DNA of 64,000 nucleotides from a virus: the IMG/VR virus record IMGVR_UViG_3300030098_005409. One strand, 5' to 3'. Position numbers and translations under genes: made by a program. The number at the start of each line of letters is the position of its first letter. Positions within the stretch are counted from its first letter, which is position 1. The notes beneath the pieces were generated by a model that saw only the letters and a list, made by a program, of their open reading frames with translations, searched no databases and was not told the origin of the DNA. Of this stretch, positions 20,031 to 59,865 are shown piece after piece.

Positions 20031-20038
20031 TAAATAGT
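20031..20038 (-). promoter_or_regulatory. ACTATTTA motif (putative late promoter)
   Basis: About 20 nt upstream of the start at 20011; recurs before other virion genes. Confidence 0.55.
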
Positions 20039-24629: not shown

Positions 24630-24647
24630 TAAATAGTGTTAAATAGT
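24630..24647 (-). promoter_or_regulatory. Tandem ACTATTTA motifs upstream of the sheath gene
   Basis: ACTATTTA-ac-ACTATTTA, two copies 10 nt apart. Confidence 0.6.
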
Positions 24648-29835: not shown

Positions 29836-29843
29836 TAAATAGT
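29836..29843 (-). promoter_or_regulatory. ACTATTTA motif upstream of scaffold/capsid genes
   Basis: About 36 nt upstream of 29800. Confidence 0.55.
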
Positions 29844-33180: not shown

Positions 33181-33188
33181 TAAATAGT
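33181..33188 (-). promoter_or_regulatory. ACTATTTA motif
   Basis: About 23 nt upstream of 33158. Confidence 0.55.
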
Positions 33189-35580: not shown

Positions 35581-37509
35581 TTAGTAGATATACCAATCGG
35601 ATCCATCGGTGTATAAAAAGACTGATCCGTAAGGTGATTCAAGGTGTATCGCTGGAGCGCCGTCAATCGTTTGTGATCCTGCAGGGTTAAGAATTACGGA
35701 GGTTGCAGAAGACGCCTGACCAGACTCATCTTTAACAATTAAAGTTTGCCCCGCAGAAAAATCTGTGGCATTAAATAAAATGTTTGTTGGAACTGCTGAC
35801 ACACCAATAATATAATTTCCAGCTGACGCAGTATAGCTTGTTGCTACTGACACTCTGTTGTGTACTAATCCACCATCAACAGTCAGCCTATTATTACTAA
35901 CACTGTACGACACCTTTGTTGTGCCACTAATTTCATTTGAAATTGGATTGTCAACCCTAAACTGAAGGGCTCCTACTGGACCATCTCCTGTAGTGATAGC
36001 CGAGGCTGTAACGTTTGTAAGGTGCCTGCCGTCACCATAATAAAAATCACCATAGTAAAGTGACGATGAAACATGCGCAGAGGCTGTTACATTACTAAAC
36101 TGTCCAGCGCTAGCGGACATCTTGGTGGTACCATCTTCAGCTACGTCGCCCAAGCTGGCGACGACCTGACTAACATTGCTTGGGTCTCTAATCTCAATAG
36201 CTCCAGCAATCTTTAGAGGCGAACCACCGACAACTGTGCCCTTAACCGTAAGATCGCCTGCTACCAAAACATCCGCCGAGGCTGACACACTACCGATCAC
36301 GGTCAACTCATGAGAGGGATCTGCCGTTCCAACGCCTACCTTGCCGGATCCAGTTACAACCAATATATCTGCTGCAGCAGAACTGGAAACCTGTAATAAG
36401 TTTTGGTTTCCGGATCCTGATATGTAAATTCTTGCCGGTATTGGCTCCCCTGCTGCGCCGTCGCGGAATGCCATATTACCATCAGAATTCATTTGCCAGC
36501 GAACTGTTGCGCTGTCAAAATCATTATTTTGTGTTTGAAATTTCAGCATACCATTAGAGGATTGTATTTGGTACTGAGTCGTTTGGTCAGTCTCAAAAAA
36601 CTGGATCCTTGGACGTAACCCTGTAAAACGAATTGCTGGGCTGTTGTCGACAGAACTGGTTCCTATTTCTAAAGTTACATCTGGGGTAGATGTGTTTATG
36701 CCTAGACGCCCAGAGCCAGTTAAGAAGACTAGATTACTATCCCCCGTAAATGCACCAGATCCAGACTGCAATTGCACTGCGCCGATAATACCGTCAGCGG
36801 ATTCGCCAGTTGCTGAAATAGTGAGCGTGCTGTTGGGCCCGCCATCAACAAACTCCACACCTGTGCCGGCGGCGAGCCTTCTTTCATTTGGTAACTTAAT
36901 TTCGGAATTAAGTGTAATATACGATGCTTCCAGGGGCGGGTACGGCACATCACGAGGTGCTGGGGAAGATACATCTGTTTCTTCCTGTTGGCTTAGAGTT
37001 GGACGATCTATTGCCGGTGTTACTCTAAACGCGCCAGCGCGGGCTCTCACACACTCGGCGCTAATTTGAAACTTGTGCTCTATCTGTCCAAAATAATAGC
37101 GAGTATCATTGTAGGTTTTAACAATCTCATAGAATATATCACCATACTGAATAAAGTCGCCAACGCGAACAAATAGATTCTGATCCTCTACAAGTCTGCG
37201 GCGGTGGAAGTTAACTGTTAGTTTAGTTTGATATTCATAACCATACTTTGTATTGGTTTGATTATTCTCAACTTCAACATATGCAAACACCCGCACCGGC
37301 GGCAATGATACTTTCTCTTTTGCCTCGCCGTAAATATCATTGAAGTTTGATTCTTCAATACTTATAGGATAGTAAGCTATTGTTTGACCAAGAACTCTTT
37401 CGGCAAGTTCATCGTTGACTTGCTTTACGAGATTACGTTCTTTTTCCCCAAAGAACATTGGTGCCGGTGGCGCCCCAGGTCTTGTCCATTTATTTTTTGG
37501 ATCGGACAT
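35581..37509 (-). CDS. Head-closure (gp14-like) domain fused to fibre modules
   Basis: First ~163 aa are about 80% identical (manual count) to 37523-38038, followed by GINTSTP/GVGTADP fibre repeats and a C-terminal module. Confidence 0.8.
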   Translation of the reverse strand: MSDPKNKWTRPGAPPAPMFFGEKERNLVKQVNDELAERVLGQTIAYYPISIEESNFNDIYGEAKEKVSLPPVRVFAYVEVENNQTNTKYGYEYQTKLTVNFHRRRLVEDQNLFVRVGDFIQYGDIFYEIVKTYNDTRYYFGQIEHKFQISAECVRARAGAFRVTPAIDRPTLSQQEETDVSSPAPRDVPYPPLEASYITLNSEIKLPNERRLAAGTGVEFVDGGPNSTLTISATGESADGIIGAVQLQSGSGAFTGDSNLVFLTGSGRLGINTSTPDVTLEIGTSSVDNSPAIRFTGLRPRIQFFETDQTTQYQIQSSNGMLKFQTQNNDFDSATVRWQMNSDGNMAFRDGAAGEPIPARIYISGSGNQNLLQVSSSAAADILVVTGSGKVGVGTADPSHELTVIGSVSASADVLVAGDLTVKGTVVGGSPLKIAGAIEIRDPSNVSQVVASLGDVAEDGTTKMSASAGQFSNVTASAHVSSSLYYGDFYYGDGRHLTNVTASAITTGDGPVGALQFRVDNPISNEISGTTKVSYSVSNNRLTVDGGLVHNRVSVATSYTASAGNYIIGVSAVPTNILFNATDFSAGQTLIVKDESGQASSATSVILNPAGSQTIDGAPAIHLESPYGSVFLYTDGSDWYIY

Positions 37510-37522
37510 TCACTCGTTACTC

Positions 37523-38038
37523 CTAAGAAGGTCTTGTAATAGCTTCCTTAACTCTAAATAGACCTCTACGAGCGCGAACACACTCTGCACTTACTTGAAA
37601 TTTGTGCTCTACCTGTCCAAAGTAATATCTTGTATCATTATAGGTTTTTACTATCTCGTAAAATAAATCGCCGTATTGAATAAAATCCCCAGCGCGAACA
37701 AAAAGGTTTTGGTCTTCTACAAGGCGGCGACGGTTAAAATTAATTGTAAGCTTGGATTGATATTCATATCCATACTTTTCGTTTGTTTGTTCGTTATCAA
37801 CAATAACATACGCAAACACACGCACTGGCGGAAGTGTAACTTTATCTATTGCCTCACCGTATGTTGAGTTAAAGTTAGTATCTTCCATACTAACAGAATA
37901 ATAAGCGACTGTCTGCCCAACAACACGTTCGGCTAGCTCATCATTGACTTGTTTTACAAGATCACGTTCATTTTGCCCAAAGAACATTGGGGGTGGTGGC
38001 GCATCTGGCTGCGTCCATTTGTTCTTCGGATCAGACAC
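37523..38038 (-). CDS. Head-closure / neck protein (T4 gp14-like)
   Basis: E..LVKQVNDELAERVVGQ..YY, YGEA..K, GDFIQY..FYEIV, FGQ pattern. Confidence 0.75.
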   Translation of the reverse strand: MSDPKNKWTQPDAPPPPMFFGQNERDLVKQVNDELAERVVGQTVAYYSVSMEDTNFNSTYGEAIDKVTLPPVRVFAYVIVDNEQTNEKYGYEYQSKLTINFNRRRLVEDQNLFVRAGDFIQYGDLFYEIVKTYNDTRYYFGQVEHKFQVSAECVRARRGLFRVKEAITRPS

Positions 38039-38484: not shown

Positions 38485-38492
38485 TAAATAGT
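38485..38492 (-). promoter_or_regulatory. ACTATTTA motif
   Basis: About 18 nt upstream of 38467. Confidence 0.55.
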
Positions 38493-38732: not shown

Positions 38733-39188
38733 TTACTCTCTTTCTTTCATTTCGTTCATGTGGGCATTCCAATTGCGTCCCACGGCGCCGAAAAGATTGC
38801 TAATATCAACCCCGGGGTCGGACGGAGATTGACCAGACATGGGGGATGCCTGTGAGGTTGAAGTTGGGGTTGCCTGGGCAGGCGCAGGGGTTGTGCCCTC
38901 AAACAAGTCAACACCGTTATACGCCCCGCCACCTATGGCAGCCATTAGCTTCTTTTTATGTTGTTTAAGTTTGCCCGACTGCTCTTTACTAAAAGCATTT
39001 GCTTTCATTCTTTCCATGGTGGGATCAACTTTCGGTTCTGGGGCCTTGGCTTCTACTAAGGTTTGTGAGGACATACCCTTAACAACCTCGGCAATGATAC
39101 CTGAGATCAACCCGTCTTCAAGAAGTGATTCTTTGATGCACTCTTGAACAATGGGCTTGATTAGTTTCTTAAACTCTGACTTTTTCAT
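38733..39188 (-). CDS. Hypothetical protein (head region)
   Basis: 151 aa, MKKSEFKKLIKPIVQECIKESLLE N-terminus. Confidence 0.7.
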   Translation of the reverse strand: MKKSEFKKLIKPIVQECIKESLLEDGLISGIIAEVVKGMSSQTLVEAKAPEPKVDPTMERMKANAFSKEQSGKLKQHKKKLMAAIGGGAYNGVDLFEGTTPAPAQATPTSTSQASPMSGQSPSDPGVDISNLFGAVGRNWNAHMNEMKERE

Positions 39189-40279
39189 TTTATACCTGCT
39201 AATACTTTCATTCTTTTAATTTGTTTGTGTTCTGTAAGGCGATTTCTCTTTGCCAATATGTCCTTGGCGACGGCTAGTATCTTCTGCTCAGCATTTCTGA
39301 GGACCTCCATGTCGTAGTTGACCTCCGCCCATGCGGCGCGCTGATCATCGAGCAGTTCCTGCCGAGCCTCATAAGTCTCGTGGGGGCTCAACCCGTAGAT
39401 TCGGCCATAACTGTCATAGAGATGATTGAGGACTTCGATGGGCGCACTTATGGTACCGAACGTAAGGTCGTCCTTCTCAACGGAAGAGAAAAATTCCTCT
39501 AGAGTCTCGTCGTCCAAGGATAAGAAAAACTTTTCAAAGTCGACTGGCTCTTCTTCAGGGTCTGCTACGGTGAGAATCGAGGGTATGTCCTCCTCCTCAT
39601 CTTCGGGGTCCGGAGCAGCCACTGGCTCTGCTGCAATGGTGTCTGTTTGGTCTTCCTCATCTTCAGGATCCGGAGCAGCTACCGGTTTTGTTACAATAGT
39701 TGCTGTCTGGTCTTCTTGATCCGGATCCGGGCCCCGGACTGGTTCTGCTACAATGGTATCTGTTTGATCTTCTTCATCTGGAGCAGCCACTGGCTCTGTT
39801 ACAATGGTATCTGTTTGATCTTCATCTGGTTCGGGATCAGCTACGGTGAGGATCGAGGGAATGTTATCGGCTATACTTTTAACAACCGGACTAATATCCA
39901 AGGCACTACGGTTGAACAATCCTAATAATTGTTTAAAAACTTTAGGACTCTTTTGTGCTATAGTATCTAAAAATACTTTGAGCTTAGGAGCATTTTGGTG
40001 CGTGACGACCACATCTTCCTCACCAGTAAAAAGGCGCTCATTTTCTTTAACAACAAAACCTTCGTCTTCAAGAACGCCTGTAAGTTCATCTACAATAGCT
40101 TCGCGCTGCGACGGCGTAAGTTCTGCTCCGGATCTTTTAGACGCGTCGTCAAGTCCCTTAATGATGGTTGCCAACTCAGAAGCTGGATATTCTTTGGTTG
40201 GTTCTTTCTTGCCGAAACCAAAGATTTCATTAACTTCTTCTTTAATAATTTTTTGCAATTCTTCTTTTGAGATTTGCAT
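39185..40279 (-). CDS. Acidic repeat protein, candidate prohead core / internal head protein
   Basis: N-terminus MQISKEELQKIIKEEVNE; C-terminus RMKVLAGIK like the scaffold; internal repeats. Confidence 0.65.
   Translation of the reverse strand: MQISKEELQKIIKEEVNEIFGFGKKEPTKEYPASELATIIKGLDDASKRSGAELTPSQREAIVDELTGVLEDEGFVVKENERLFTGEEDVVVTHQNAPKLKVFLDTIAQKSPKVFKQLLGLFNRSALDISPVVKSIADNIPSILTVADPEPDEDQTDTIVTEPVAAPDEEDQTDTIVAEPVRGPDPDQEDQTATIVTKPVAAPDPEDEEDQTDTIAAEPVAAPDPEDEEEDIPSILTVADPEEEPVDFEKFFLSLDDETLEEFFSSVEKDDLTFGTISAPIEVLNHLYDSYGRIYGLSPHETYEARQELLDDQRAAWAEVNYDMEVLRNAEQKILAVAKDILAKRNRLTEHKQIKRMKVLAGIK
39548..39862 (-). repeat. In-frame tandem repeat (about 4x (E)DQTDTIV.EPVAAPD) bracketed by two IPSILTVADPE copies
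   Basis: Visible in both protein and DNA. Confidence 0.85.
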
Positions 40280-41759: not shown

Positions 41760-41810
41760 TCAGCTACCGGAGCAGCAGCGGCGCACGGGCTGGATTTGCC
41801 ACTTTTTCAT
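41760..41810 (-). CDS. 16-aa micropeptide MKKWQIQPVRRCCSGS; not in track
   Basis: GGAGGTG RBS; ATGA overlap with the upstream stop; terminator directly after. Confidence 0.6.
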   Translation of the reverse strand: MKKWQIQPVRRCCSGS

Positions 41811-42127: not shown

Positions 42128-42847
42128 TTAAAGCTGCTTTCCGATTGCTGCGCCGGCTTGCTTCTTTCTTGCAGCTTTTTTGATCGCTTTAAAATCTGCT
42201 GAGGTGCCACTTCCAGCAATCCCCGGAGCAGTATGTCCGGTCAGTTGGCGTCCATATTCCGATTCTAAAAATTTAACAAGATTTAAATTAACATCTAAAT
42301 CAGCTGCTTCTACCTCTTCGTCATCAGGCTTTGCATCTATTTGCGAAAGCCACCATTTTAGATATTCTTCTTCAATCCTATCATCAATTATTTCTGCGTA
42401 TTTAGGATCCAGATTAAAAAGATCAAGGAAAGGAACTTTATCAGTTTTCTCCGTGGGCTCTCCTCTTAATTTATTAAAAAGCTTTTTACCAAGACCAACA
42501 AGCTTAACGCCCGAACTAACAGCGCCCAAAGCGCTAAGGACGTGGGGGGCGGCGCCGATGAGCGCCCCAATAGTTAGCAGTTCCTCCGACAATAAAAATT
42601 TCTCTTTTTCTTCCCCTTCGCTGACAGCCGAAGCAACAGCTTTAGCTATATCTTTAGCAATTCCACTATCAACAACACCAAGTATACCAGATGCAGCCGC
42701 GAGTGCATCACCAGTAAGACCTTGTTTGATTCCCGTCATTAGCTTTAAAATACTTTTTAAAAGTCCGTATGTTACAGGATCATTTCCAGAGATCTCATTT
42801 AATTGGAAGTTACGCCAGTTCTCCATTATAAGTTTCATATCAGACAT
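42128..42847 (-). CDS. Hypothetical, MKLIMENW-type N-terminus (candidate head protein)
   Basis: N-terminus shared with 53752-54834. Confidence 0.65.
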   Translation of the reverse strand: MSDMKLIMENWRNFQLNEISGNDPVTYGLLKSILKLMTGIKQGLTGDALAAASGILGVVDSGIAKDIAKAVASAVSEGEEKEKFLLSEELLTIGALIGAAPHVLSALGAVSSGVKLVGLGKKLFNKLRGEPTEKTDKVPFLDLFNLDPKYAEIIDDRIEEEYLKWWLSQIDAKPDDEEVEAADLDVNLNLVKFLESEYGRQLTGHTAPGIAGSGTSADFKAIKKAARKKQAGAAIGKQL

Positions 42848-49736: not shown

Positions 49737-50474
49737 ATGTCTAAACGCACCAAGCTTAAATTTAAGAAAATGCTGAAGAAAGCTGAATTTGTGCACGCAG
49801 ATTTAGAATACCACGAGGAGTTGGTTTCCGAAGCAAGAGCGGGCTTTAACGAAGCTTTTCTTGAAAGGCTAGCACGGCTAGACAAGTTACAAAAAAGGGC
49901 TTGGGACAGACATCTAAAAAAATTGAATAATGAAAAAGCAGAGCAGCTCTTGGAACAGGCCGAAAAAGAACAGAAGGAAAAGCTAGAACCCAAACAAGCC
50001 GAGCTGCCCGCCAACGTAGCAGAGCAAAATAAAGAAGTTTTTATGGATGGTGAAACGGGTGAAGAGTTCTACATGAACCCCGATGAGATAGAACAAGACG
50101 ACGACAATAAATTGGGCGTAATTAAAAAGCTTTATCGCAAAATTGCCAACGAAACACACCCTGATAAATTAGTTGCCTCGGGATTCTCTCTCGGAGAATC
50201 TCAAAGAAAGCAAGATATCTTTAAGAAAGCCAAAGAAGCTTACGAAAGAGACAACTGGTACACTCTCTATTCCATAGCCATCGACCTTGGAATATCCCCG
50301 GGGGACATTGATGACAAACACATTGACTGGATTGAAGAAGATATTAAACTTACGATGGGACGTATTTCCAAAATAGGCCAACTGTTTGTATGGGTCTGGT
50401 ATACCTCAACTGATGAAGTCAAAGAGAGAGTAATGGACCAATACTTTAGGCAAGTATATGATTGGCCAAAATAA
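49737..50474 (+). CDS. J-domain (DnaJ-like) protein
   Basis: IKKLYRKIANETHPDKL...FKKAKEAYE with HPD motif; the only plus-strand gene. Confidence 0.85.
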   Translation: MSKRTKLKFKKMLKKAEFVHADLEYHEELVSEARAGFNEAFLERLARLDKLQKRAWDRHLKKLNNEKAEQLLEQAEKEQKEKLEPKQAELPANVAEQNKEVFMDGETGEEFYMNPDEIEQDDDNKLGVIKKLYRKIANETHPDKLVASGFSLGESQRKQDIFKKAKEAYERDNWYTLYSIAIDLGISPGDIDDKHIDWIEEDIKLTMGRISKIGQLFVWVWYTSTDEVKERVMDQYFRQVYDWPK

Positions 50475-50476
50475 AA

Positions 50477-50542
50477 CTAGTTCTTCTTTTTCTTTTTAAA
50501 TGTTAAGCCGCCTAAGAGCGCTTCCCAAAATGCTGAACTCAT
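50477..50542 (-). CDS. 21-aa micropeptide MSSAFWEALLGGLTFKKKKKN; not in track
   Basis: GAGGA RBS; ATGA overlap with the SbcCD stop; exactly fills the gap to the J-domain stop. Confidence 0.45.
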   Translation of the reverse strand: MSSAFWEALLGGLTFKKKKKN

Positions 50543-53500
50543 TGGTTTATCCTCGCATAACCGTTAGTCTTATCTATTGTAATCTCTGTATCCACAATGT
50601 CTTTCAGAGAATCCAAGTGAGAAATAAGTATAACTGTTTTGAAATACGTTTTAACTAGGTCAAGCATACGAATAAAGCCCTCCATGTTTTCAGCATCCAA
50701 AGCAGTTCCTGGCTCGTCAAGGATAAAGATGTTCCCCTTTGGTAGCGACGATACAGATAGTAGCGCCAAGCGTATGCCCATGGACGCAAGAGTCTTCTCT
50801 GCTCCGGAGCCCATCTCAATAGGGCGCGCTTCAAAGTTAGGATGTTTGATAAGAACATCCAACTTGTTGCCATCCTCTTGGAAGAAGACTTCAAAGTCAA
50901 CAATGTTTGAGATTGTCTTTGCTATCTCCTCATTGATAACCGGCAAGCGTCTTTTAATAATATGGTAAGCGATTCCGTTGGAATGCATACAACGCATAAA
51001 TAAATCATAGGCGGCGAACTCTGCGCGGATATCAAGTAGCTCTTGCTTCTTCTCCTTGAGGGATTCTACCTTTTGTTCAAGCGATCCAATCGTTCTATTG
51101 TGCACTGACAACCCTTCCTCAAAGACTTCAATGCCTTTCTTGTTGGCTTCTATCTTATCAGAGATCTCGTCTCGGGATGAGATAAGGTTTTCAATGTTTT
51201 GAATAGCTTCCTTGTTATCCTCATACAGAGCAATCTTTTCATTCGTTTCAGTTAACTCAGCCGACATTGTTTTAATCTTGGCAAACAACTTTTCAATTGA
51301 AACTTTGTTGTCACGCTTTTCGATCTCAATGCCGTTCTTGGCAATTATTGTTTCGTTATACTTGTCGATCAAAGCAACCATCTCTGCCGAGTTAACTGAT
51401 ACTACCTTCTTCTTGTAGCCCTTAGCTTCCTCAATCTTCTCGATAATTGTCTTTTCAAGGAGGGGTAGCTCCAACGAAGCCGAGTGTGCGTCAGCAATAA
51501 ACTTACAGGAAGTCACAAAAGCATCACCACAAGGAACCTCGTCAAGGAGGTTTAGCTTCTTGGCCATTGTTTTATAATCGTTGTCCATAATCCGAGCACG
51601 GTTTACGGTCTCATCATAACGTTGCTTAAAATCGTCGTACTGCTTTTTCTCTTCCAGCAGTTCTTCAATATTAATCGTCGTTAAGAAATCATCATAAGTT
51701 TTTAGCTTACCATCAAATTGAACTATCTCTTGTTTTAGTTCGCTGATATTATCCTTTGTATCTTGAATACTGGTGGTTAGTTGCTTTCTTTTCTCAACCA
51801 ATTTCTTGATGTTTAGGCGCTCTGTTGGGATAGAGTCAATCTGTTCAGTCAAATCACTGTACACTTGCTCGTTTTCAACCAACTGCTGACGTATAGCTTC
51901 ACAGTTCTTAGTGTCGGCTAGTAGTTCTTTCTGGGCTTCTTCACAATGCACCTCGGCAATAGCTATGTCTTTATCATAATCTGTGTCACCCAAGCGTCGA
52001 AGGACAGCTTTTAAGTCAGCTGAATCTTCTTTTGCTAGCTTAAACTTCTTCTCAAAGATCTCTAAATCCAAGAACTTAGCTAGGATCTCCTTACGCTTTG
52101 TGGATCCTTCCTTAATAAAGCTTAAAGAATCAAGCTGGCTAGCCATTGACGTCAATAAAAAGTCCTCAATTGTGCCAAACTGCTTGCGAATATTAGCATC
52201 GGTCTCATTGCGTGTCGTGCCGTTAAGGCTTAAATCACCGTCCTGCGTAAAGTCCAAGAAGGTCCTAGCTTCATTGGTTTCTACACCTTTGAGGCGCTTT
52301 ATATACTTCTCGGATTTTCTTTCGATAGTATAGGTCTTCTCGCCAATTTGAAGGTCAATTGTGCCAATACAGTTCTTCTTGTTCTGGTTGATAATGTTGT
52401 AATTCTTACGTTCGTTCTTTGACGTTGTGTTAAACATAGTATAAAGCATCCCATCAATAACTGATGACTTGCCTGAATAGTTCTTACCAAAGATGCCCAC
52501 AATTCCATTGAGGTTTGTAAAGTCAAGAGTGTTGCTTTCACCATAATTGAACAGATTATCCCACTCAAAGCGATTAATATTCCAGTTAACGTTTCTCGCA
52601 ATGTCTTCGTTCTCCTCAATATGAGAGTTATACTTACGGTTTAGCTCGTAAATCTTCTGGATTGTTTCCTCTGTGGGTTCATAATCCTCTAAATACTCGC
52701 GCATTAGACGTTCTTGAACTGCAACGTCTCGTAAGTTCTCAACCTTAAAGCTCTTTCCAAGACTAACTTCTCCTCTTTCTCCTGCTGCGCGGTTCAAGAA
52801 CGAGATTGATTCAGGCTTAAAACGGGACTTTGCCACCTCGACAGCCTTGCGCATCACATCCAAAGGAAGGTTGTTATTGCTTACAAGACGAAGACGAGCA
52901 CCAGAAGGAATCTTAGTGCCCTTTGGCATACGCCCCTTCGGCGTTAGTTCAATCGTCATAAAAGGCTTTGGGTTCAAAAGAACATGATGATTAACTGTAA
53001 AAGTGTTTTTGTCTTCAATGTCCCAAATCAAAAAGCCTTTGTCGTTGGTTTCGCCGTGGTTCTGCTGGACAGTCGAACCGCAGTAACGTACTCGACCCTC
53101 TGTATCAAGAATCTGATTTGTCTTGTGAATGTCCCCAAGCATTGCGAAGTCGTGACCGGCGAAGACTCCAATGTCATGATCGCCATGATCCATAACCCAG
53201 CCAACGTCCGTCGAGACGCCACCAATGGCGCCGTGATACAAAGCAATATTAATACGAGACTGGTCGCTTGGTGCGACCCAGTTCTCCTCGTCAAACACGG
53301 ATAGCACGTTGAGCGCGAGATCGGGCTCTAGAACAGTTTCACCCGCGTTCTTGAGTAGGTAAAGGTTTGGAAGATTTAAAGCGCTTACAATGGGCGACAG
53401 CGCGTCCTGACGGCTACTGTTCTTTAAGTTGCCGTCGTGGTTGCCCAGAATGATATAGGTTGGCGCGATCGAGGCCAGATTCACGAAGAAGTCGGAGCAA

Positions 53501-53694
53501 AGCTCAACGAACTCTGGTGAAATCTGGGTCTTGGTGTGGGCGATGTCGCCGCAGTGAACAATGTAATCCACGTTCTCTTTACGAAGAATCTCGTAAAGTT
53601 GTTCGAATACCTTCTTGTATTCGTAATGATATTTTAAATTTTTTATATGCGTGTCCGCAATGTGAGCTATTCTATACACGTTATCCCCTAACAC
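50539..53694 (-). CDS. Fused Mre11/SbcD nuclease and Rad50/SbcC ATPase (gp47-gp46-like)
   Basis: HIADTH, GDIAH, GNHD, LGDIH; Walker A GKNYSGKS; coiled coil with Cys pair; GSGAEK signature; LDEPG; ISH. GTG at 53679 is a possible true start. Confidence 0.92.
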   Translation of the reverse strand: MLGDNVYRIAHIADTHIKNLKYHYEYKKVFEQLYEILRKENVDYIVHCGDIAHTKTQISPEFVELCSDFFVNLASIAPTYIILGNHDGNLKNSSRQDALSPIVSALNLPNLYLLKNAGETVLEPDLALNVLSVFDEENWVAPSDQSRINIALYHGAIGGVSTDVGWVMDHGDHDIGVFAGHDFAMLGDIHKTNQILDTEGRVRYCGSTVQQNHGETNDKGFLIWDIEDKNTFTVNHHVLLNPKPFMTIELTPKGRMPKGTKIPSGARLRLVSNNNLPLDVMRKAVEVAKSRFKPESISFLNRAAGERGEVSLGKSFKVENLRDVAVQERLMREYLEDYEPTEETIQKIYELNRKYNSHIEENEDIARNVNWNINRFEWDNLFNYGESNTLDFTNLNGIVGIFGKNYSGKSSVIDGMLYTMFNTTSKNERKNYNIINQNKKNCIGTIDLQIGEKTYTIERKSEKYIKRLKGVETNEARTFLDFTQDGDLSLNGTTRNETDANIRKQFGTIEDFLLTSMASQLDSLSFIKEGSTKRKEILAKFLDLEIFEKKFKLAKEDSADLKAVLRRLGDTDYDKDIAIAEVHCEEAQKELLADTKNCEAIRQQLVENEQVYSDLTEQIDSIPTERLNIKKLVEKRKQLTTSIQDTKDNISELKQEIVQFDGKLKTYDDFLTTINIEELLEEKKQYDDFKQRYDETVNRARIMDNDYKTMAKKLNLLDEVPCGDAFVTSCKFIADAHSASLELPLLEKTIIEKIEEAKGYKKKVVSVNSAEMVALIDKYNETIIAKNGIEIEKRDNKVSIEKLFAKIKTMSAELTETNEKIALYEDNKEAIQNIENLISSRDEISDKIEANKKGIEVFEEGLSVHNRTIGSLEQKVESLKEKKQELLDIRAEFAAYDLFMRCMHSNGIAYHIIKRRLPVINEEIAKTISNIVDFEVFFQEDGNKLDVLIKHPNFEARPIEMGSGAEKTLASMGIRLALLSVSSLPKGNIFILDEPGTALDAENMEGFIRMLDLVKTYFKTVILISHLDSLKDIVDTEITIDKTNGYARINQ

Positions 53695-53751: not shown

Positions 53752-54834
53752 TTATCTAGGAAAGTTTCTTGGATAATCGCGCTTAATGGCGTGAACGCGT
53801 TCCCCAGCGGCTAGCCGGTCTTTGATCCTATCTACATCACCCTGATGGAGGCGACCTTTTGACTTTTCAAATTCTGCTTTCCGAATAAGATCCTGAGCCT
53901 CATCTTGCCCCTCTTCCATTGGAGCGTACATCGGGTTGGCGAGGATGTGGCGAAGAGTAGCAACCATGTCGGCATCCAAACTCATGCTAAGGTCCTTCAA
54001 CTCATCCCGAGTCATCTTACCCAGAGCTTCACGGGCATTGATAAGAGTAATAAGCCGCCCTTCGGGGGAATCGAATGCTCGATCACGGGTCTCCTCGTCC
54101 TCTGGCTGAGCAATATCTTCAATCCCTGCGCCTGGGCGATCGGCGCCGCGCATGGCGTCCATCTCTTCCTTAACTGCCTTCTTCAAGGAGCCGCGACTAA
54201 CTTTGATGCTCTTGCCGCGCCCAGTATCCTTATCGAACTTAACAGCAACATCGGTGTTCTTTGTTCCTGGGTGGGTCACAACACCGGCGCCATACTCGTC
54301 ATGGGTTACTTTCTCACCAGACCTAAAGCCTTCTTCAAGCTGTTTCATATCGCGGTTTGCTAGCCCTTGGCGAACTTTATCAGCGATAGTCTCTAGCATT
54401 TCTGCTATCCCCAGGGCTGCAGCGTTGGCAGAGATTGCCGCGACAGCAACTTCAGGATTCTGCTGAATGAAGCCGATAAACTGACTGACTAGCTCGGCGC
54501 CCGGGAAGCCCTCTTGAAGCTTGCCTCTCTCTTCCATATCAAGAGCCATGGCAACAGCCTGCTTCTGAGGCTTGCCTTCCTTATCCATCAAGTAGGAGAT
54601 TTTCTTGCTTACCTTATCGTCATTCTCGGATATTCTGTTGCGACTGTGAAACTCAGCAAGATCCGTTAGAATTTTATACAAGTTATAGTTATCTTCACCA
54701 TAAGCAGTATTCAAAACTAAAGTTATCTTGTCAAGAACGTCGCCGTACAAAGCCTCTAGAGGCATATCTTGCCCCGCGATAGAAGCGGCTTCTTCATTAA
54801 TAAACTTTCTAAAGTTTTCTAATATAAGCTTCAT
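53752..54834 (-). CDS. Modular protein with MKLILENF N-terminus and repeated LxE sites; contains a Tudor-like segment
   Basis: INEE, ISE, LQEG, LEEG, VKEE and MEEG sites; GEKVTHDEYGAGVV...VAVKFD segment. Confidence 0.65.
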   Translation of the reverse strand: MKLILENFRKFINEEAASIAGQDMPLEALYGDVLDKITLVLNTAYGEDNYNLYKILTDLAEFHSRNRISENDDKVSKKISYLMDKEGKPQKQAVAMALDMEERGKLQEGFPGAELVSQFIGFIQQNPEVAVAAISANAAALGIAEMLETIADKVRQGLANRDMKQLEEGFRSGEKVTHDEYGAGVVTHPGTKNTDVAVKFDKDTGRGKSIKVSRGSLKKAVKEEMDAMRGADRPGAGIEDIAQPEDEETRDRAFDSPEGRLITLINAREALGKMTRDELKDLSMSLDADMVATLRHILANPMYAPMEEGQDEAQDLIRKAEFEKSKGRLHQGDVDRIKDRLAAGERVHAIKRDYPRNFPR

Positions 54835-54845
54835 CTTTTAATCCT

Positions 54846-54923
54846 CTAGCAGCAATCGCCGGTGCAGCAGCAGCAACAACGGGGTGTAAATAGGCTTACA
54901 ATCTTGTCCCATAAGTTTCTCAT
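54846..54923 (-). CDS. 25-aa Cys-rich micropeptide MRNLWDKIVSLFTPRCCCCCTGDCC; not in track
   Basis: GGAG RBS; ATGA overlap with the upstream stop; its TAG abuts the AGGA RBS of the next gene. Confidence 0.6.
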   Translation of the reverse strand: MRNLWDKIVSLFTPRCCCCCTGDCC

Positions 54924-55039
54924 TTTTTGCTCTCCATGTTATCTAGCAAGTCTTCGCCCATATAGCGAATCTCGTAAACCATGACTGCCCTCATATATAA
55001 TATTTCTTGCATCACTTCTAGTAGACGAGCTTTGGACAT
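54920..55039 (-). CDS. 39-aa hypothetical (MSKARLLEVMQEILYMRAVMVYEIRYMGEDLLDNMESKK); not in track
   Basis: Starts 4 nt after the primase stop; ACTATTTA motif at 55071-55078 upstream. Confidence 0.55.
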   Translation of the reverse strand: MSKARLLEVMQEILYMRAVMVYEIRYMGEDLLDNMESKK

Positions 55040-55043
55040 AGTA

Positions 55044-55979
55044 TTACACAGACATTGCTAATGTCAACAGTAAATAGTTGTCTGGTGTGATAAGGGTCGC
55101 TTTGTCTAAACATTTTTGAAACTGATCTTTTGTCATAGACCCAACATCTTCGTTATCGCCAACGTCGACTTTCCAAACTTCGATGTCAAAATTCAGCAGA
55201 GTTCTAATGATATCCAACTCTTTCTTCTTGGCGTCCGGATCCAAAGCGATATACACCCCTGCGTCTTCCTTGACAATCTTTTGAAGCAAAGTGGAGTTCT
55301 GATTTAGTGTGGAACCAAGAAGAGGCACAGAGTTGCGTCCAGCAACGATAGCATCAAACACGCCTTCTACTAGAACAATGTCCGAACTCCAATCCACAAA
55401 CAAATCATTGAATATAATGTTTTTGCTCGCTGGTGGGTTCTTATACTTTGGATAGGCTCTCTTGTCATAAGATCGAGAGATAAAGTAATTTAGGTCGCCT
55501 TCGTCGTCAAACGACGGAATTACAACGCGGCCCTCATACTCTCCCTTGCTACAATAACCCATCTTCCACCAAACAATGTCTTGTTTCGTGATACCGCGTT
55601 TTCGGAGGTAGTTTCTAGCAGCGAAGCCGGTAGGTGGTATATCTTTGTTAGCCAAAGATACAAAGCCTTCGGGCATCTCAAGTATTTGTTTTTCTTCTAC
55701 TTTCTCGGCAAAAAGATCTTCGAGCTTGTCGTAATCAACAGTTTCTGTAATTTCACGCCACTGTGCTTTATCATGACTACTGCCGAAGCGGCGAATAACA
55801 CGATAGATATTTTTACCGCGCGTGTCGCATATCCAGCATTTGTAGTAGCCCTTAGCCACATTAACAGAAAATTTGCGCTTATGATGCTTACAGTAAGGAC
55901 AAGAAAAAAGGTGTTCATCGTTTGAACGGTAAGATACTCCGAGAACACTCGTTAGAATCTTAAGTTTCTTGCTGTCCAT
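55044..55979 (-). CDS. DNA primase (Zn finger plus TOPRIM)
   Basis: CPYC...KCWIC, VVIPSFD, RSY, KYKNP, LVEGVFDA, LDPDA. Start moved to the ATG at 55979. Confidence 0.92.
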   Translation of the reverse strand: MDSKKLKILTSVLGVSYRSNDEHLFSCPYCKHHKRKFSVNVAKGYYKCWICDTRGKNIYRVIRRFGSSHDKAQWREITETVDYDKLEDLFAEKVEEKQILEMPEGFVSLANKDIPPTGFAARNYLRKRGITKQDIVWWKMGYCSKGEYEGRVVIPSFDDEGDLNYFISRSYDKRAYPKYKNPPASKNIIFNDLFVDWSSDIVLVEGVFDAIVAGRNSVPLLGSTLNQNSTLLQKIVKEDAGVYIALDPDAKKKELDIIRTLLNFDIEVWKVDVGDNEDVGSMTKDQFQKCLDKATLITPDNYLLLTLAMSV

Positions 55980-56481
55980 TAATCCACCCCGCCTTTGCAA
56001 TCACATAACTATCCGAACGGTCAGCATAGCCGGCCTTCGGATTTCCATGTCTTGTGTATTCTATATCAAAGGAGGGTACGTTGTCAAGGACAAATTGAAG
56101 AGCGACGTCTTTTGCTTTCTGTCCCTTGGGAACCTTGATACCGCAACTCTTCCTAGCGGATGTGGCAGCAAGATACTGTGGCTCAATTCCAAAAAGATTA
56201 TAACATATCCACGAAACAATACCATTTATTTTTGACAACAGGGACAAAGTTTGTGCTGATGAAAACCCAGATCGAAAAGACTGAAGAGATTGCTCCACAT
56301 AAATGTGTTCAATAAAGTAATCGTTTCGTATCGCAGCCAAGCGACCTTCAACTGCGGAGCATTTCAGAAAGAAGTTCTTTTCTTTGCGAAGATCTATATG
56401 ATCGCAAACGACGATGTTGCCGTCGTTATCCAATATGGTGTAACCAGTGATACTGGTCGATATGTCAAGTCCTAAAATCAT
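55960..56481 (-). CDS. RuvC-like Holliday junction resolvase
   Basis: ILGLDISTSITGY, IYVEQ, DRSDSYVIA. Confidence 0.85.
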   Translation of the reverse strand: MILGLDISTSITGYTILDNDGNIVVCDHIDLRKEKNFFLKCSAVEGRLAAIRNDYFIEHIYVEQSLQSFRSGFSSAQTLSLLSKINGIVSWICYNLFGIEPQYLAATSARKSCGIKVPKGQKAKDVALQFVLDNVPSFDIEYTRHGNPKAGYADRSDSYVIAKAGWINGQQET

Positions 56482-59857: not shown

Positions 59858-59865
59858 TAAATAGT
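59858..59865 (-). promoter_or_regulatory. ACTATTTA motif
   Basis: About 20 nt upstream of 59838. Confidence 0.55.

What the first reader, a model, noticed from the sequence alone, without database searches (positions are those of the whole stretch)
54846..55078. Hidden two-ORF unit ending in a 25-aa peptide with 7 cysteines (CCCCC run)
Seen: an ACTATTTA motif, a 39-aa ORF, an ATGA overlap, then MRNLWDKIVSLFTPRCCCCCTGDCC with its own GGAG SD; its stop abuts the next RBS. It has an amphipathic N-helix and a metallothionein-like Cys cluster, and shares P-R-C-C...[ST]G[SD] with the 16-aa peptide. Both peptides lie directly upstream of LxE-family genes. Inference: an undescribed Cys-micropeptide system (metal or sulfur handling, redox buffering, modified-peptide precursor, or a Cys-sensing leader controlling the downstream gene).
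Basis: partly seen in the sequence, partly recalled or inferred. Interest (0 to 1): 0.75.

Follow-up and report, generated by a model that had tools for sequence, protein, structure and literature searches.

The report
Conserved cysteine-cluster micropeptide in marine phage
The 25-codon, seven-cysteine reading frame is a real gene from an unannotated family of 24-40-residue peptides (a short helix, then a cysteine cluster) kept by selection in uncultured T4-like ocean phages; it may bind metal, but its function is untested.

Summary
Observation confirmed. At 54846-55078 (minus strand) lie an ACTATTTA motif, a 39-codon ORF, an ATGA overlap and a 25-codon ORF with seven Cys. The ORF has its own GGAG, and its stop abuts the next gene's AGGA.

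The ORF is not a chance frame or a neutral microsatellite. I found 15 DNA loci, including the window, plus 3 further protein variants, in three forms. A is the window's form. B has compensating +9/-9 nt indels. C is 30-40 aa and has no TGC repeat. None is frame-broken.

Substitutions are mostly synonymous in the Cys frame only: A 9:3 (p=2e-5); C core 21:2; C cluster part, free of search bias, 12:4 (p=9e-7). The cassette is mobile. In four contigs form C sits elsewhere, while the slot beside the primase holds no such ORF.

No modifying enzyme is a consistent neighbour, and forms A and B show no RNA structure. The best reading is a translated accessory micropeptide: a helix carrying a thiolate cluster, probably binding a soft metal. 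That function is inferred, not shown.

The scan had already flagged one member (e1-5771002) and other polycysteine micro-ORFs on other phage DNA.

The parts
55071..55078 (-). ACTATTTA motif, probably this phage's late-promoter element, 32 nt before the 39-codon ORF and inside the primase 3' end
   Evidence: 11 sites, all on the coding strand, against 2.5 expected. Seven are intergenic, 18-47 nt before starts of structural genes. Promoter function is inferred.
55040..55067 (-). sigma-70-like match (TTGACA, 16 nt, AATACT with TG), overlapping the same place
   Evidence: Consensus scan only: 6 sites found against 4.3 expected in the region. This is no evidence of function.
54920..55039 (-). 39-codon ORF, a member of a conserved family of 39-44-aa helical proteins. 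It has no Shine-Dalgarno of its own and starts 5 nt after the primase stop.
   Evidence: Homologs in relatives. 30 protein clusters in the 5.8-billion-protein collection. No Pfam or PHROGs match.
54932..54935 (-). GGAG Shine-Dalgarno of the Cys peptide, embedded in the last codons of the 39-codon ORF
   Evidence: Sequence. In relatives L009/L010/L300 the same conserved junction (GGAG, A-rich spacer, ATGA) starts a 110-aa gene, so ribosomes presumably start there (inference).
54846..54923 (-). 25-codon Cys-cluster peptide gene (form A): an N-terminal helix-prone half, then 7 Cys in the last 10 residues
   Evidence: Intact in all 9 form A/B loci, counting the window. 9 synonymous against 3 non-synonymous changes in this frame only. 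In-frame indels. Family alignment A7.
54864..54878 (-). Run of five Cys codons (one TGT, four TGC). Its length varies in the family: 5, 4 or 3.
   Evidence: The same five-Cys run arose separately with mixed TGT/TGC codons in L312.
54849..54854 (-). Terminal vicinal Cys pair
   Evidence: Kept in every form A and B locus.
54842..54845 (-). AGGA Shine-Dalgarno of the next gene, directly after the peptide's stop codon
   Evidence: Sequence. Conserved in the A/B loci.
53752..54834 (-). 360-aa gene of the shared-leader family (starts MKLILENF...). It has no Cys and no family match.
   Evidence: Variable downstream partner genes in relatives.
41760..41810 (-). 16-codon di-Cys peptide gene in the head module: a possible distant relative or functional analogue, listed for comparison
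   Evidence: Present in 72 loci with 27 distinct DNA sequences and an invariant core. 21 synonymous against 10 non-synonymous changes, p=6.6e-9.

Best explanation
This is a real, translated accessory gene of an uncultured far-T4-like marine phage. It encodes a 25-residue cytoplasmic peptide with two parts. The N-terminal half is helix-prone and mildly amphipathic. The C-terminal half is a cysteine cluster: a vicinal Cys pair followed within a few residues by at least two more Cys.

The gene belongs to a family of 24-40-residue peptides (forms A, B and C). It moves as a small cassette among the hypervariable arrays of 'shared-leader' genes in these phages. It is probably expressed from an ACTATTTA late-type promoter and through translational coupling with its neighbours.

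Shown by comparison: the reading frame, the purifying selection on it, its mobility and its translation signals.

Inferred: the helix docks the peptide on a partner or a membrane surface, and the thiolate cluster binds a soft metal ion (Cu(I), Zn(II) or similar). It would act either as a miniature chelator or chaperone, or as a metal-bridged clasp onto a partner protein. The run of five Cys is a lineage-specific filling of two tolerant positions within the cluster, not the functional core.

My odds: real selected peptide gene about 0.9; thiolate or metal-binding mechanism about 0.35-0.4.
For: The ORF is intact in all 15 DNA loci found (9 form A/B, 6 form C), plus 3 further protein variants.

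Form A differs from form B by +9 and -9 nt indels that keep both frame and length.

Synonymous excess appears only in the Cys frame. Form A gives 9:3, omega about 0.07, p=1.9e-5. The form C core gives 21:2. In the Cys-cluster part, which the helix-based scan did not constrain, the count is 12:4, p=8.9e-7.

All five loci found through the helix alone carry an intact Cys cluster.

Form C is homologous to B at DNA level, with a TAG-to-TGG extension.

The cassette occurs in at least five different gene contexts. In four contigs covering both places, form C sits elsewhere and the primase-adjacent slot has no such ORF.

The GGAG/ATGA start region also serves an undoubted gene in relatives.

AlphaFold2 on form C gives a helix at residues 3-22 and a disordered tail, at low confidence (pLDDT 63). 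Amphipathicity is clear for form B (93 of 5000 shuffles reach its moment) and weaker for A and C.

No signal peptide or transmembrane stretch is evident by eye (not run through a predictor), so the thiols would sit in the reducing cytoplasm. CC, CxC and CxxC spacings are the usual ligand patterns of metallothioneins and copper chaperones (established knowledge, not tested here).
Against: No experiment or expression data exist, and the phage is uncultured. Metal binding is inferred from composition only. There is no sequence match to any metallothionein or other family. The helix with Trp/Phe is unlike classical metallothioneins. Form A's amphipathicity is no better than shuffles over the whole N-terminal segment. 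The Cys count varies widely (4 to 8), which fits a loose chelator but also fits relaxed constraint on part of the cluster. Sample sizes are small, and most loci were found with patterns that require parts of the peptide.
Confidence: 0.45

Rival explanations
1. A cysteine-sensing translational leader. Ribosomes pause on the Cys codons when Cys-tRNA is scarce, which changes translation of the tightly coupled downstream shared-leader gene. This would work like the polycysteine short ORFs of mycobacteria.
For: There are consecutive Cys codons. The stop abuts or overlaps the next gene's start signals in every locus, and 14 of 15 loci sit directly before a shared-leader gene. In form C the Cys codons can pair with the downstream Shine-Dalgarno (-18 kcal/mol, z=-1.6, 17 of 200 shuffles as good). 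Canestrari et al. show that two or more consecutive Cys codons can suffice (bioRxiv 10.1101/834739).
Against: Forms A and B have no structure better than shuffles (z +1.47, +1.45, +0.73, +0.11). The consensus fold is weak, with no covariation. The ORF is not leaderless or first on the message; it has its own GGAG and an ATGA coupling. The downstream gene has no Cys and no link to sulfur metabolism. Non-Cys residues of the helix are under strong purifying selection. Tight spacing is the rule throughout this genome.
Confidence: 0.15
2. A protein-binding or membrane-active micropeptide whose cysteines act without metal. They might form disulfide or covalent links to a target, a disulfide-knotted peptide after release by lysis, or a hydrophobic or acylated 'cysteine string' anchor.
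For: The helix plus terminal Cys cluster resembles cysteine-string and membrane-anchor motifs (knowledge, untested). In some relatives the same slot after the primase holds a 46-aa peptide with a hydrophobic C-terminal segment instead (L013, L014, L042, L044). This suggests interchangeable small tail-anchored peptides.
Against: Bacteria have no known general S-acylation machinery, and the cytoplasm is reducing. The peptide has no signal peptide (established knowledge). Nothing in the sequence data tells this reading apart from metal binding.
Confidence: 0.15
3. A translated but functionally neutral young ORF. It would be a spacer that merely hands ribosomes from the 39-codon gene to the next gene, with a slippage-prone (TGC)n tract.
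For: Form A/B is restricted to close relatives (primase at least 89% identical). The Cys number varies (5, 4, 3). Cys codons in A/B are almost all TGC, against 47% TGC genome-wide. Both points are consistent with slippage.
Against: There is synonymous excess in A and in C. Homologous form C lacks any repeat and lies in other contexts. No frame-breaking variant was found in 15 loci. Relatives that lack the ORF couple the two flanking genes directly, so no spacer is needed.
Confidence: 0.07
4. The precursor of a ribosomally made, enzymatically modified peptide, with a leader helix and a Cys-rich core.
For: The layout is leader-like half plus Cys-rich core. In one locus (L312) the gene directly upstream is an Asp/Asn beta-hydroxylase-family protein (PF05118, 35.6 bits).
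Against: The hydroxylase is absent from seven other peptide-bearing records, including one rated 100% complete, while the positive control was found. There is no radical SAM gene in three records. Neighbours differ in every context and are non-enzymatic or unknown.
Confidence: 0.06
5. Not coding in this frame. The conservation would belong to an antisense ORF (the poly-Gln frame) or to a DNA or RNA element.
For: The antisense frame that shares wobble positions is open for about 40 codons in most loci and shows 8:4 synonymous to non-synonymous changes (p=1e-3).
Against: That frame has no ATG or Shine-Dalgarno, is broken by a stop in L184, and runs against the orientation of nearly every gene in the window. 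Its signal is the expected shadow of the sense frame. GCTGCTGC is not unusual beyond the locus itself. There is no tandem repeat and no RNA structure.
Confidence: 0.03

Closest known systems
Polycysteine leaderless short ORFs of mycobacteria ('Cys ribulon'; Canestrari et al., bioRxiv 10.1101/834739)
   Same: An unannotated short ORF with consecutive Cys codons, lying directly before another gene. Some non-Cys residues are conserved there too.
   Different: Those ORFs are leaderless, first on the transcript and precede cysteine-metabolism operons. They act through an RNA duplex that hides the next ribosome-binding site. Here the ORF is internal and has its own Shine-Dalgarno. Forms A and B show no such duplex. 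The target has no Cys and no known link to sulfur.
Smallest metallothioneins and copper-thiolate peptides (for example the roughly 25-residue, 7-Cys Neurospora Cu-thionein, and the CCxC site of Cox17; from my own knowledge)
   Same: The size, the Cys fraction, the CC/CxC/CxxC spacings and the cytoplasmic location.
   Different: There is no sequence relationship. This family has a conserved helical N-terminal half with aromatic residues, a variable Cys number (4-8) and a phage origin. Metal binding is untested.
Vicinal Cys-pair soft-metal sites of the mercury and arsenic systems (MerA C-terminal pair, MerT/MerF pairs, ArsD pairs; from my own knowledge)
   Same: Adjacent Cys-Cys pairs on a flexible terminal segment: the arrangement those proteins use to take up and hand over Hg(II) or As(III).
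   Different: Those sites are parts of larger proteins within dedicated resistance operons. Here the peptide stands alone with no such genes nearby. This is a resemblance only.
Hyperplastic regions and internal-protein loci of T4-type phages (PMC4122927; PMC3012670)
   Same: The peptide lies in a rapidly reshuffled array of small genes that share only a conserved N-terminal leader. T4 internal proteins likewise share only a capsid targeting sequence. The phage has a T4-type portal, terminase and S77 prohead protease.
   Different: The Cys peptide itself carries no such leader and, in form A, has no Glu at all, so it has no (L/I)-x-E cleavage site. No such Cys micropeptide is mentioned in the passages I read of the two T4 papers.
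Other polycysteine micro-ORFs noted by this scan in marine phages and SAR86 (e1-5726565, e1-5643758, e1-5337762; AI notes, unchecked by me)
   Same: Tiny unannotated Cys-rich ORFs in marine T4-like phages, also read as probable metal binders.
   Different: From the short descriptions, those are 14-33 residues made almost wholly of Cys, without the conserved helical half. I did not test whether they are related.

Membership tests
Mycobacterial polycysteine short-ORF attenuators | Two or more consecutive Cys codons in a short ORF | tested here: met
   Five plus two Cys codons in the window. At least a Cys pair in every family member.
Mycobacterial polycysteine short-ORF attenuators | Leaderless ORF at the 5' end of the transcript | tested here: not met
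   The ORF has GGAG 8 nt upstream and an ATGA overlap with a preceding ORF. The nearest promoter-like motif lies before that preceding ORF.
Mycobacterial polycysteine short-ORF attenuators | A stable RNA duplex hiding the downstream ribosome-binding site, opened by a ribosome paused on the Cys tract | tested here: inconclusive
   Forms A and B: z +1.47, +1.45, +0.73, +0.11. The consensus fold is -9.4 kcal/mol with no covariation. Form C: a possible pairing with the next Shine-Dalgarno, z -1.6.
Mycobacterial polycysteine short-ORF attenuators | Downstream genes of cysteine or sulfur metabolism that respond to cysteine supply | tested here: not met
   The downstream 360-aa protein has no Cys and no Pfam or PHROGs family. 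Response to cysteine is not testable here.
Metallothioneins | Small, very Cys-rich, with CC/CxC/CxxC motifs | tested here: met
   7 of 25 residues in the window; 4-8 Cys across the family.
Metallothioneins | Sequence membership in a described metallothionein family | tested here: not met
   No Pfam match. No usable Atlas look-alike. The profile search of 1.84 billion proteins found only the family's own 32-aa cluster and two Cys-repeat proteins.
Metallothioneins | Binds metal ions in thiolate clusters | not testable with these tools
   This needs synthetic or expressed peptide and metal titration.
Ribosomally synthesised, post-translationally modified peptide precursors | A dedicated modifying enzyme encoded beside the precursor across relatives | tested here: not met
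   Only L312 has a PF05118 hydroxylase upstream. It is absent from seven other records, with a working positive control. There is no radical SAM gene in three records. Many records are fragments.
T4-type internal proteins / capsid-targeted cargo | A conserved N-terminal targeting leader ending in an (L/I)-x-E protease site, in a phage with an S77 prohead protease | tested here: not met
   The S77 protease is present, and neighbouring genes carry shared leaders. The Cys peptide has no such leader, and form A has no Glu.

The most novel reading that the evidence does not exclude
These phages may carry a phage-specific superfamily of R-C-C-S-type cysteine micropeptides. One is a 16-residue peptide fixed in the head-assembly module and conserved in over 70 contigs. 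The other is a mobile 24-40-residue helix-plus-cluster form in the cargo-gene arrays. Both would act as metal- or thiol-based cofactors of capsid assembly or of injected cargo proteins: a class of virion-associated micro-cofactors that gene callers miss.
Probability: 0.15. Interest if true: 0.8.

Novelty: new variant of a known kind. Interest (0 to 1): 0.55.

Why it matters
Genes this short fall below the length cut-off of the usual gene callers (a 78-nt ORF is shorter than Prodigal's 90-nt minimum; my knowledge). Only the 30-codon-plus forms appear at all in the protein collections, as one 3-member cluster. This case shows by comparison alone that a 25-codon ORF in an uncultured ocean phage is under purifying selection and moves as a cassette. 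It also shows that a second, 16-codon Cys peptide in the same genome is even more strongly conserved. If the peptides bind metal or clasp partner proteins, they would add a new kind of phage accessory function, acting on trace-metal or thiol chemistry during infection of marine bacteria. A chemically synthesisable 25-mer makes that directly testable without culturing the phage.

Tried and rejected
DNA similarity to 50,697 cultured or deposited phages: none. At protein level the nearest cultured relatives are only 35-38% identical.

Pfam and PHROGs on the peptide, the 39-aa partner and the neighbours: nothing. ESM Atlas on form C: no usable hit. The GTDB genome collection holds no relative of the 39-aa gene.

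No whole genome is held for this window.

I could therefore not read the DNA around the 30 clusters of the 39-44-aa protein or around P0035-P0037.

The search for homologous proteins refuses queries under 40 aa, so the peptide itself could not be searched there.

RNA-element reading rejected: no structure. Tandem-repeat reading rejected: no array found, and form C has no repeat. Antisense poly-Gln ORF rejected. DNA-motif reading of GCTGCTGC rejected: 6 sites, two of them in the locus itself. Frameshift-extension reading of the 16-aa ORF rejected: in L245 it starts 5 nt after the stop rather than overlapping it.

Full report
THE OBSERVATION

The window is a stretch of an uncultured phage in which nearly every gene lies on the minus strand. 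Read on that strand, the primase gene (55044-56000; DnaG zinc ribbon and core) ends with TAA. Five bases later a 39-codon ORF starts (54920-55039). Its last codons contain GGAG (54932-54935), and its TGA overlaps the ATG of a 25-codon ORF (54846-54923) as ATGA.

That ORF encodes a helix-prone N-terminal half, then five consecutive Cys, three other residues and a terminal Cys pair. Its TAG is followed at once by AGGA and, 8 nt on, by the ATG of a 360-aa gene (53752-54834). ACTATTTA lies at 55071-55078.

Composition alone is suggestive rather than decisive. Cys is 0.6% of the long ORFs, yet 17 of 100 simulated windows gave some small ORF with at least 5 Cys and at least 20% Cys.

WHAT KIND OF PHAGE

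Pfam finds a T4-type portal, a T4-type large terminase and an S77 prohead protease. It also finds gp32-like, RecA/UvsX-like, DnaB-like, ribonucleotide reductase and family A polymerase genes, and a single ORF joining an Mre11-type phosphoesterase to a Rad50/SMC-type ATPase.

There is no DNA match to any deposited phage. The nearest cultured relatives (Microcystis phage Mel-JY01, Flavobacterium phage immuto, Rhodothermus phage RM378) are 34-38% identical in the portal and 29-35% in the primase. It is a far-T4-like marine phage of unknown host.

IS THE ORF CONSERVED?

A primase-based search gave 80 related IMG/VR loci. The region after the primase is hypervariable. It holds arrays of small genes that share only an N-terminal leader, of the type MKITKQRLKEII... 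or MKLI[LM]EN[FW].... Only the closest relatives (L001, L002, and L040's contig) carry the Cys ORF there.

Degenerate DNA patterns for the C-terminal cluster found further copies in IMG/VR and in metagenomes. In all there are nine loci of two forms. Form A is the window's. Form B differs by a 9-nt insertion near the start and a 9-nt deletion before the cluster, so frame and length (25 codons) are kept.

Within form A there are 9 synonymous and 3 non-synonymous changes (omega about 0.07, p=1.9e-5). The other two sense frames look neutral. The antisense frame that shares wobble positions shows a weaker echo (8:4). It has no ATG or Shine-Dalgarno, and a stop breaks it in L184.

A THIRD, MORE WIDESPREAD FORM

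A search with the 39-aa protein, which does not depend on the Cys ORF, found L302. There a 41-aa homolog is again ATGA-coupled to a Cys peptide of 32 residues, which is itself ATGA-coupled to an MKLIMENW... gene. This unit lies about 70 kb from that contig's primase.

The DNA aligns with form B. The old stop is TGG, and the frame runs on to overlap the next start. This form C has no TGC repeat.

A pattern for its cluster, and then two patterns for its helix that leave the cluster free, found L307, L310, L311, L312 and L313. These are 30-40 residues long, with the invariant stretch K-L-A-D-L-T-I-G-R-C-C followed by [SC]-[NDGC]-C-G-C-W-N.

Four form-C loci differ by 21 synonymous and 2 non-synonymous changes over the core. 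In the ten cluster codons that the helix pattern did not constrain, five loci differ by 12 synonymous and 4 non-synonymous changes (p=8.9e-7). Every locus found through the helix has an intact cluster.

L312 has five consecutive Cys written with mixed TGT/TGC codons. The five-Cys run has therefore arisen twice, by filling two tolerant positions between conserved Cys.

Three more form-C variants exist as predicted proteins. The 15-member alignment is A7.

It is not met. Cys number does vary (3, 4 or 5 in the run; 4-8 in all), but always in frame, and the cluster persists without the repeat. Slippage probably did shape the A/B run: its Cys codons are almost all TGC, against 47% TGC in the genome.

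MOBILITY AND CONTEXT

The flanks are reshuffled independently of the peptide. There are two types of upstream 39-41-aa gene and three types of downstream gene among the A/B loci.

Form C lies after a 41-aa gene (L302), a 344-aa gene (L307), a 94-aa gene (L310, L311), a DUF6321 protein (L313) or an Asp/Asn beta-hydroxylase-family protein (L312).

In four contigs that cover both places (those of L037/L310, L041/L307, L044/L311 and L059/L302), form C sits elsewhere and the slot after the primase has no Cys ORF. This fits one such gene per genome, though most records are fragments.

In 14 of 15 loci the next gene belongs to the shared-leader family.

The setting resembles the hyperplastic regions and internal-protein loci of T4-type phages, where unrelated small proteins share only a capsid targeting sequence (PMC3012670, PMC4122927). 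The Cys peptide itself has no such leader.

EXPRESSION SIGNALS

ACTATTTA occurs 11 times, always on the coding strand, against 2.5 expected. Seven sites are intergenic and lie 18-47 nt before starts of structural genes. It is probably this phage's late-promoter element (inference, by analogy with T4's TATAAATA).

The copy at 55071-55078 lies 32 nt before the 39-codon ORF. That ORF has no Shine-Dalgarno, whereas the Cys ORF has a good one. In relatives without the peptide, the same GGAG/ATGA junction starts a 110-aa gene.

Translation of the Cys ORF is therefore likely, but it has not been shown.

WHAT IT IS NOT

RNA element: the region folds no better than shuffles (z +1.47; local z +1.45, +0.73, +0.11 for A/B), and the consensus fold has no covariation. 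Only form C shows a modest pairing of the Cys codons with the next Shine-Dalgarno (z -1.6).

Modified-peptide precursor: there is no radical SAM gene in three records. The hydroxylase next to L312 is absent from seven other peptide-bearing records, one rated complete, while the control was found.

Known family: there is no Pfam, PHROGs or Atlas match. A profile search of 1.84 billion representatives found only the family's own 32-aa cluster.

MOST LIKELY MECHANISM

Shown: a selected peptide gene with a conserved helix-prone half and a conserved Cys cluster. AlphaFold2 gives a helix at residues 3-22 at low confidence. The hydrophobic moment is clear for B and weak for A and C.

Inferred: with no signal peptide or transmembrane stretch evident by eye (no predictor was run), the thiols stay reduced in the cytoplasm. 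There, clusters of CC, CxC and CxxC normally bind Zn(II) or Cu(I). I therefore favour a helix-tethered thiolate cluster that chelates a soft metal or clasps a partner through a shared metal (about 0.35-0.4).

The Cys-sensing leader reading (about 0.15) is the closest described precedent (bioRxiv 10.1101/834739). It fails on three defining features for forms A and B.

Other readings are a non-metal binding or anchoring peptide (0.15), a neutral spacer ORF (0.07), a modified-peptide precursor (0.06) and non-coding DNA (0.03).

THE 16-AA PEPTIDE

The ORF at 41760-41810 overlaps the stop of a 105-aa membrane protein, which has a weak, sub-threshold DUF1360 match. It precedes a terminator-like hairpin.

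It is present in 72 loci with 27 distinct DNA sequences and an invariant Q-P-V-R-R-C-C core, with 21 synonymous against 10 non-synonymous changes (p=6.6e-9). In L245 it starts 5 nt after the stop, so it is a gene of its own and not a frameshift extension.

Its R-C-C-S-G matches the R-C-C-S-[NDG] of form C; L313 reads R-C-C-S-G exactly. That is suggestive of kinship or of a shared ligand site, but it is too short to prove either.

EARLIER NOTES OF THIS SCAN

The L312 locus was flagged on other DNA as a peptide coupled to a beta-hydroxylase (e1-5771002). My comparison shows that this pairing is not general. Other polycysteine micro-ORFs in marine phages and SAR86 were also noted. They led me to the Canestrari paper, which I read, but I did not test whether those ORFs are related to this family.

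VERDICT

The ORF is a real member of an undescribed phage micropeptide family. Its function is unknown, with metal-thiolate binding the best guess. The claimed wider 'system' with the 16-aa peptide is possible but unproven.

Noticed in passing
window 41760-41810 (-); L218-L297: The 16-codon di-Cys ORF after a 105-aa membrane protein in the head module is conserved in 72 loci. It has an invariant core and a strong synonymous excess (21:10, p=6.6e-9). It is a genuine micro-gene, more strongly conserved than the 25-codon one.
   Followed up: partly
window, 11 sites, e.g. 20031-20038, 24630-24647, 29836-29843, 33181-33188, 38485-38492, 59858-59865 (-): ACTATTTA is over-represented (11 sites against 2.5 expected), strictly on the coding strand, and mostly 18-47 nt before starts of structural genes. 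It is probably the late-promoter element of this phage group.
   Followed up: partly
window 53752-54834, 42128-42847, 39185-40279 (-); L001-L045 downstream of the primase; L302, L307, L310-L313: Many otherwise unrelated genes begin with one of two conserved leaders (MKITKQRLKEII... or MKL[IL][LM]EN[WF]...). These include two genes beside the S77 prohead protease. The arrays after the primase are reshuffled between close relatives, much like T4 internal-protein loci with a capsid targeting sequence.
   Followed up: partly
L013:4968-5108, L014, L042:4971-5111, L044:4963-5103 (+): In some relatives the slot directly after the primase holds a 46-aa ORF with a hydrophobic C-terminal segment instead of the 39-aa and Cys-peptide unit. 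No Pfam match.
   Followed up: no
window 50539-53694 (-): A single 1051-aa ORF carries both a calcineurin-like (Mre11/SbcD-type) phosphoesterase domain and SMC_N/AAA_23 (Rad50/SbcC-type) domains, so the two proteins are fused.
   Followed up: no
window 49737-50474 (+): This is the only plausible plus-strand gene in the window. The 245-aa protein has a sub-threshold DnaJ (J-domain) match (23.3 bits against a cut-off of 27.8).
   Followed up: partly
window 37523-38038 and 35581-37509 (-): Two adjacent genes begin with nearly the same N-terminal sequence. The second continues for another 470 residues or so, which suggests a duplicated module.
   Followed up: no
L312:2560-3174 (-): An Asp/Asn beta-hydroxylase-family gene (PF05118, 35.6 bits) lies directly upstream of the 40-aa, 8-Cys family member in one 194-kb phage record. 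It was not found in seven other records that carry the peptide.
   Followed up: yes
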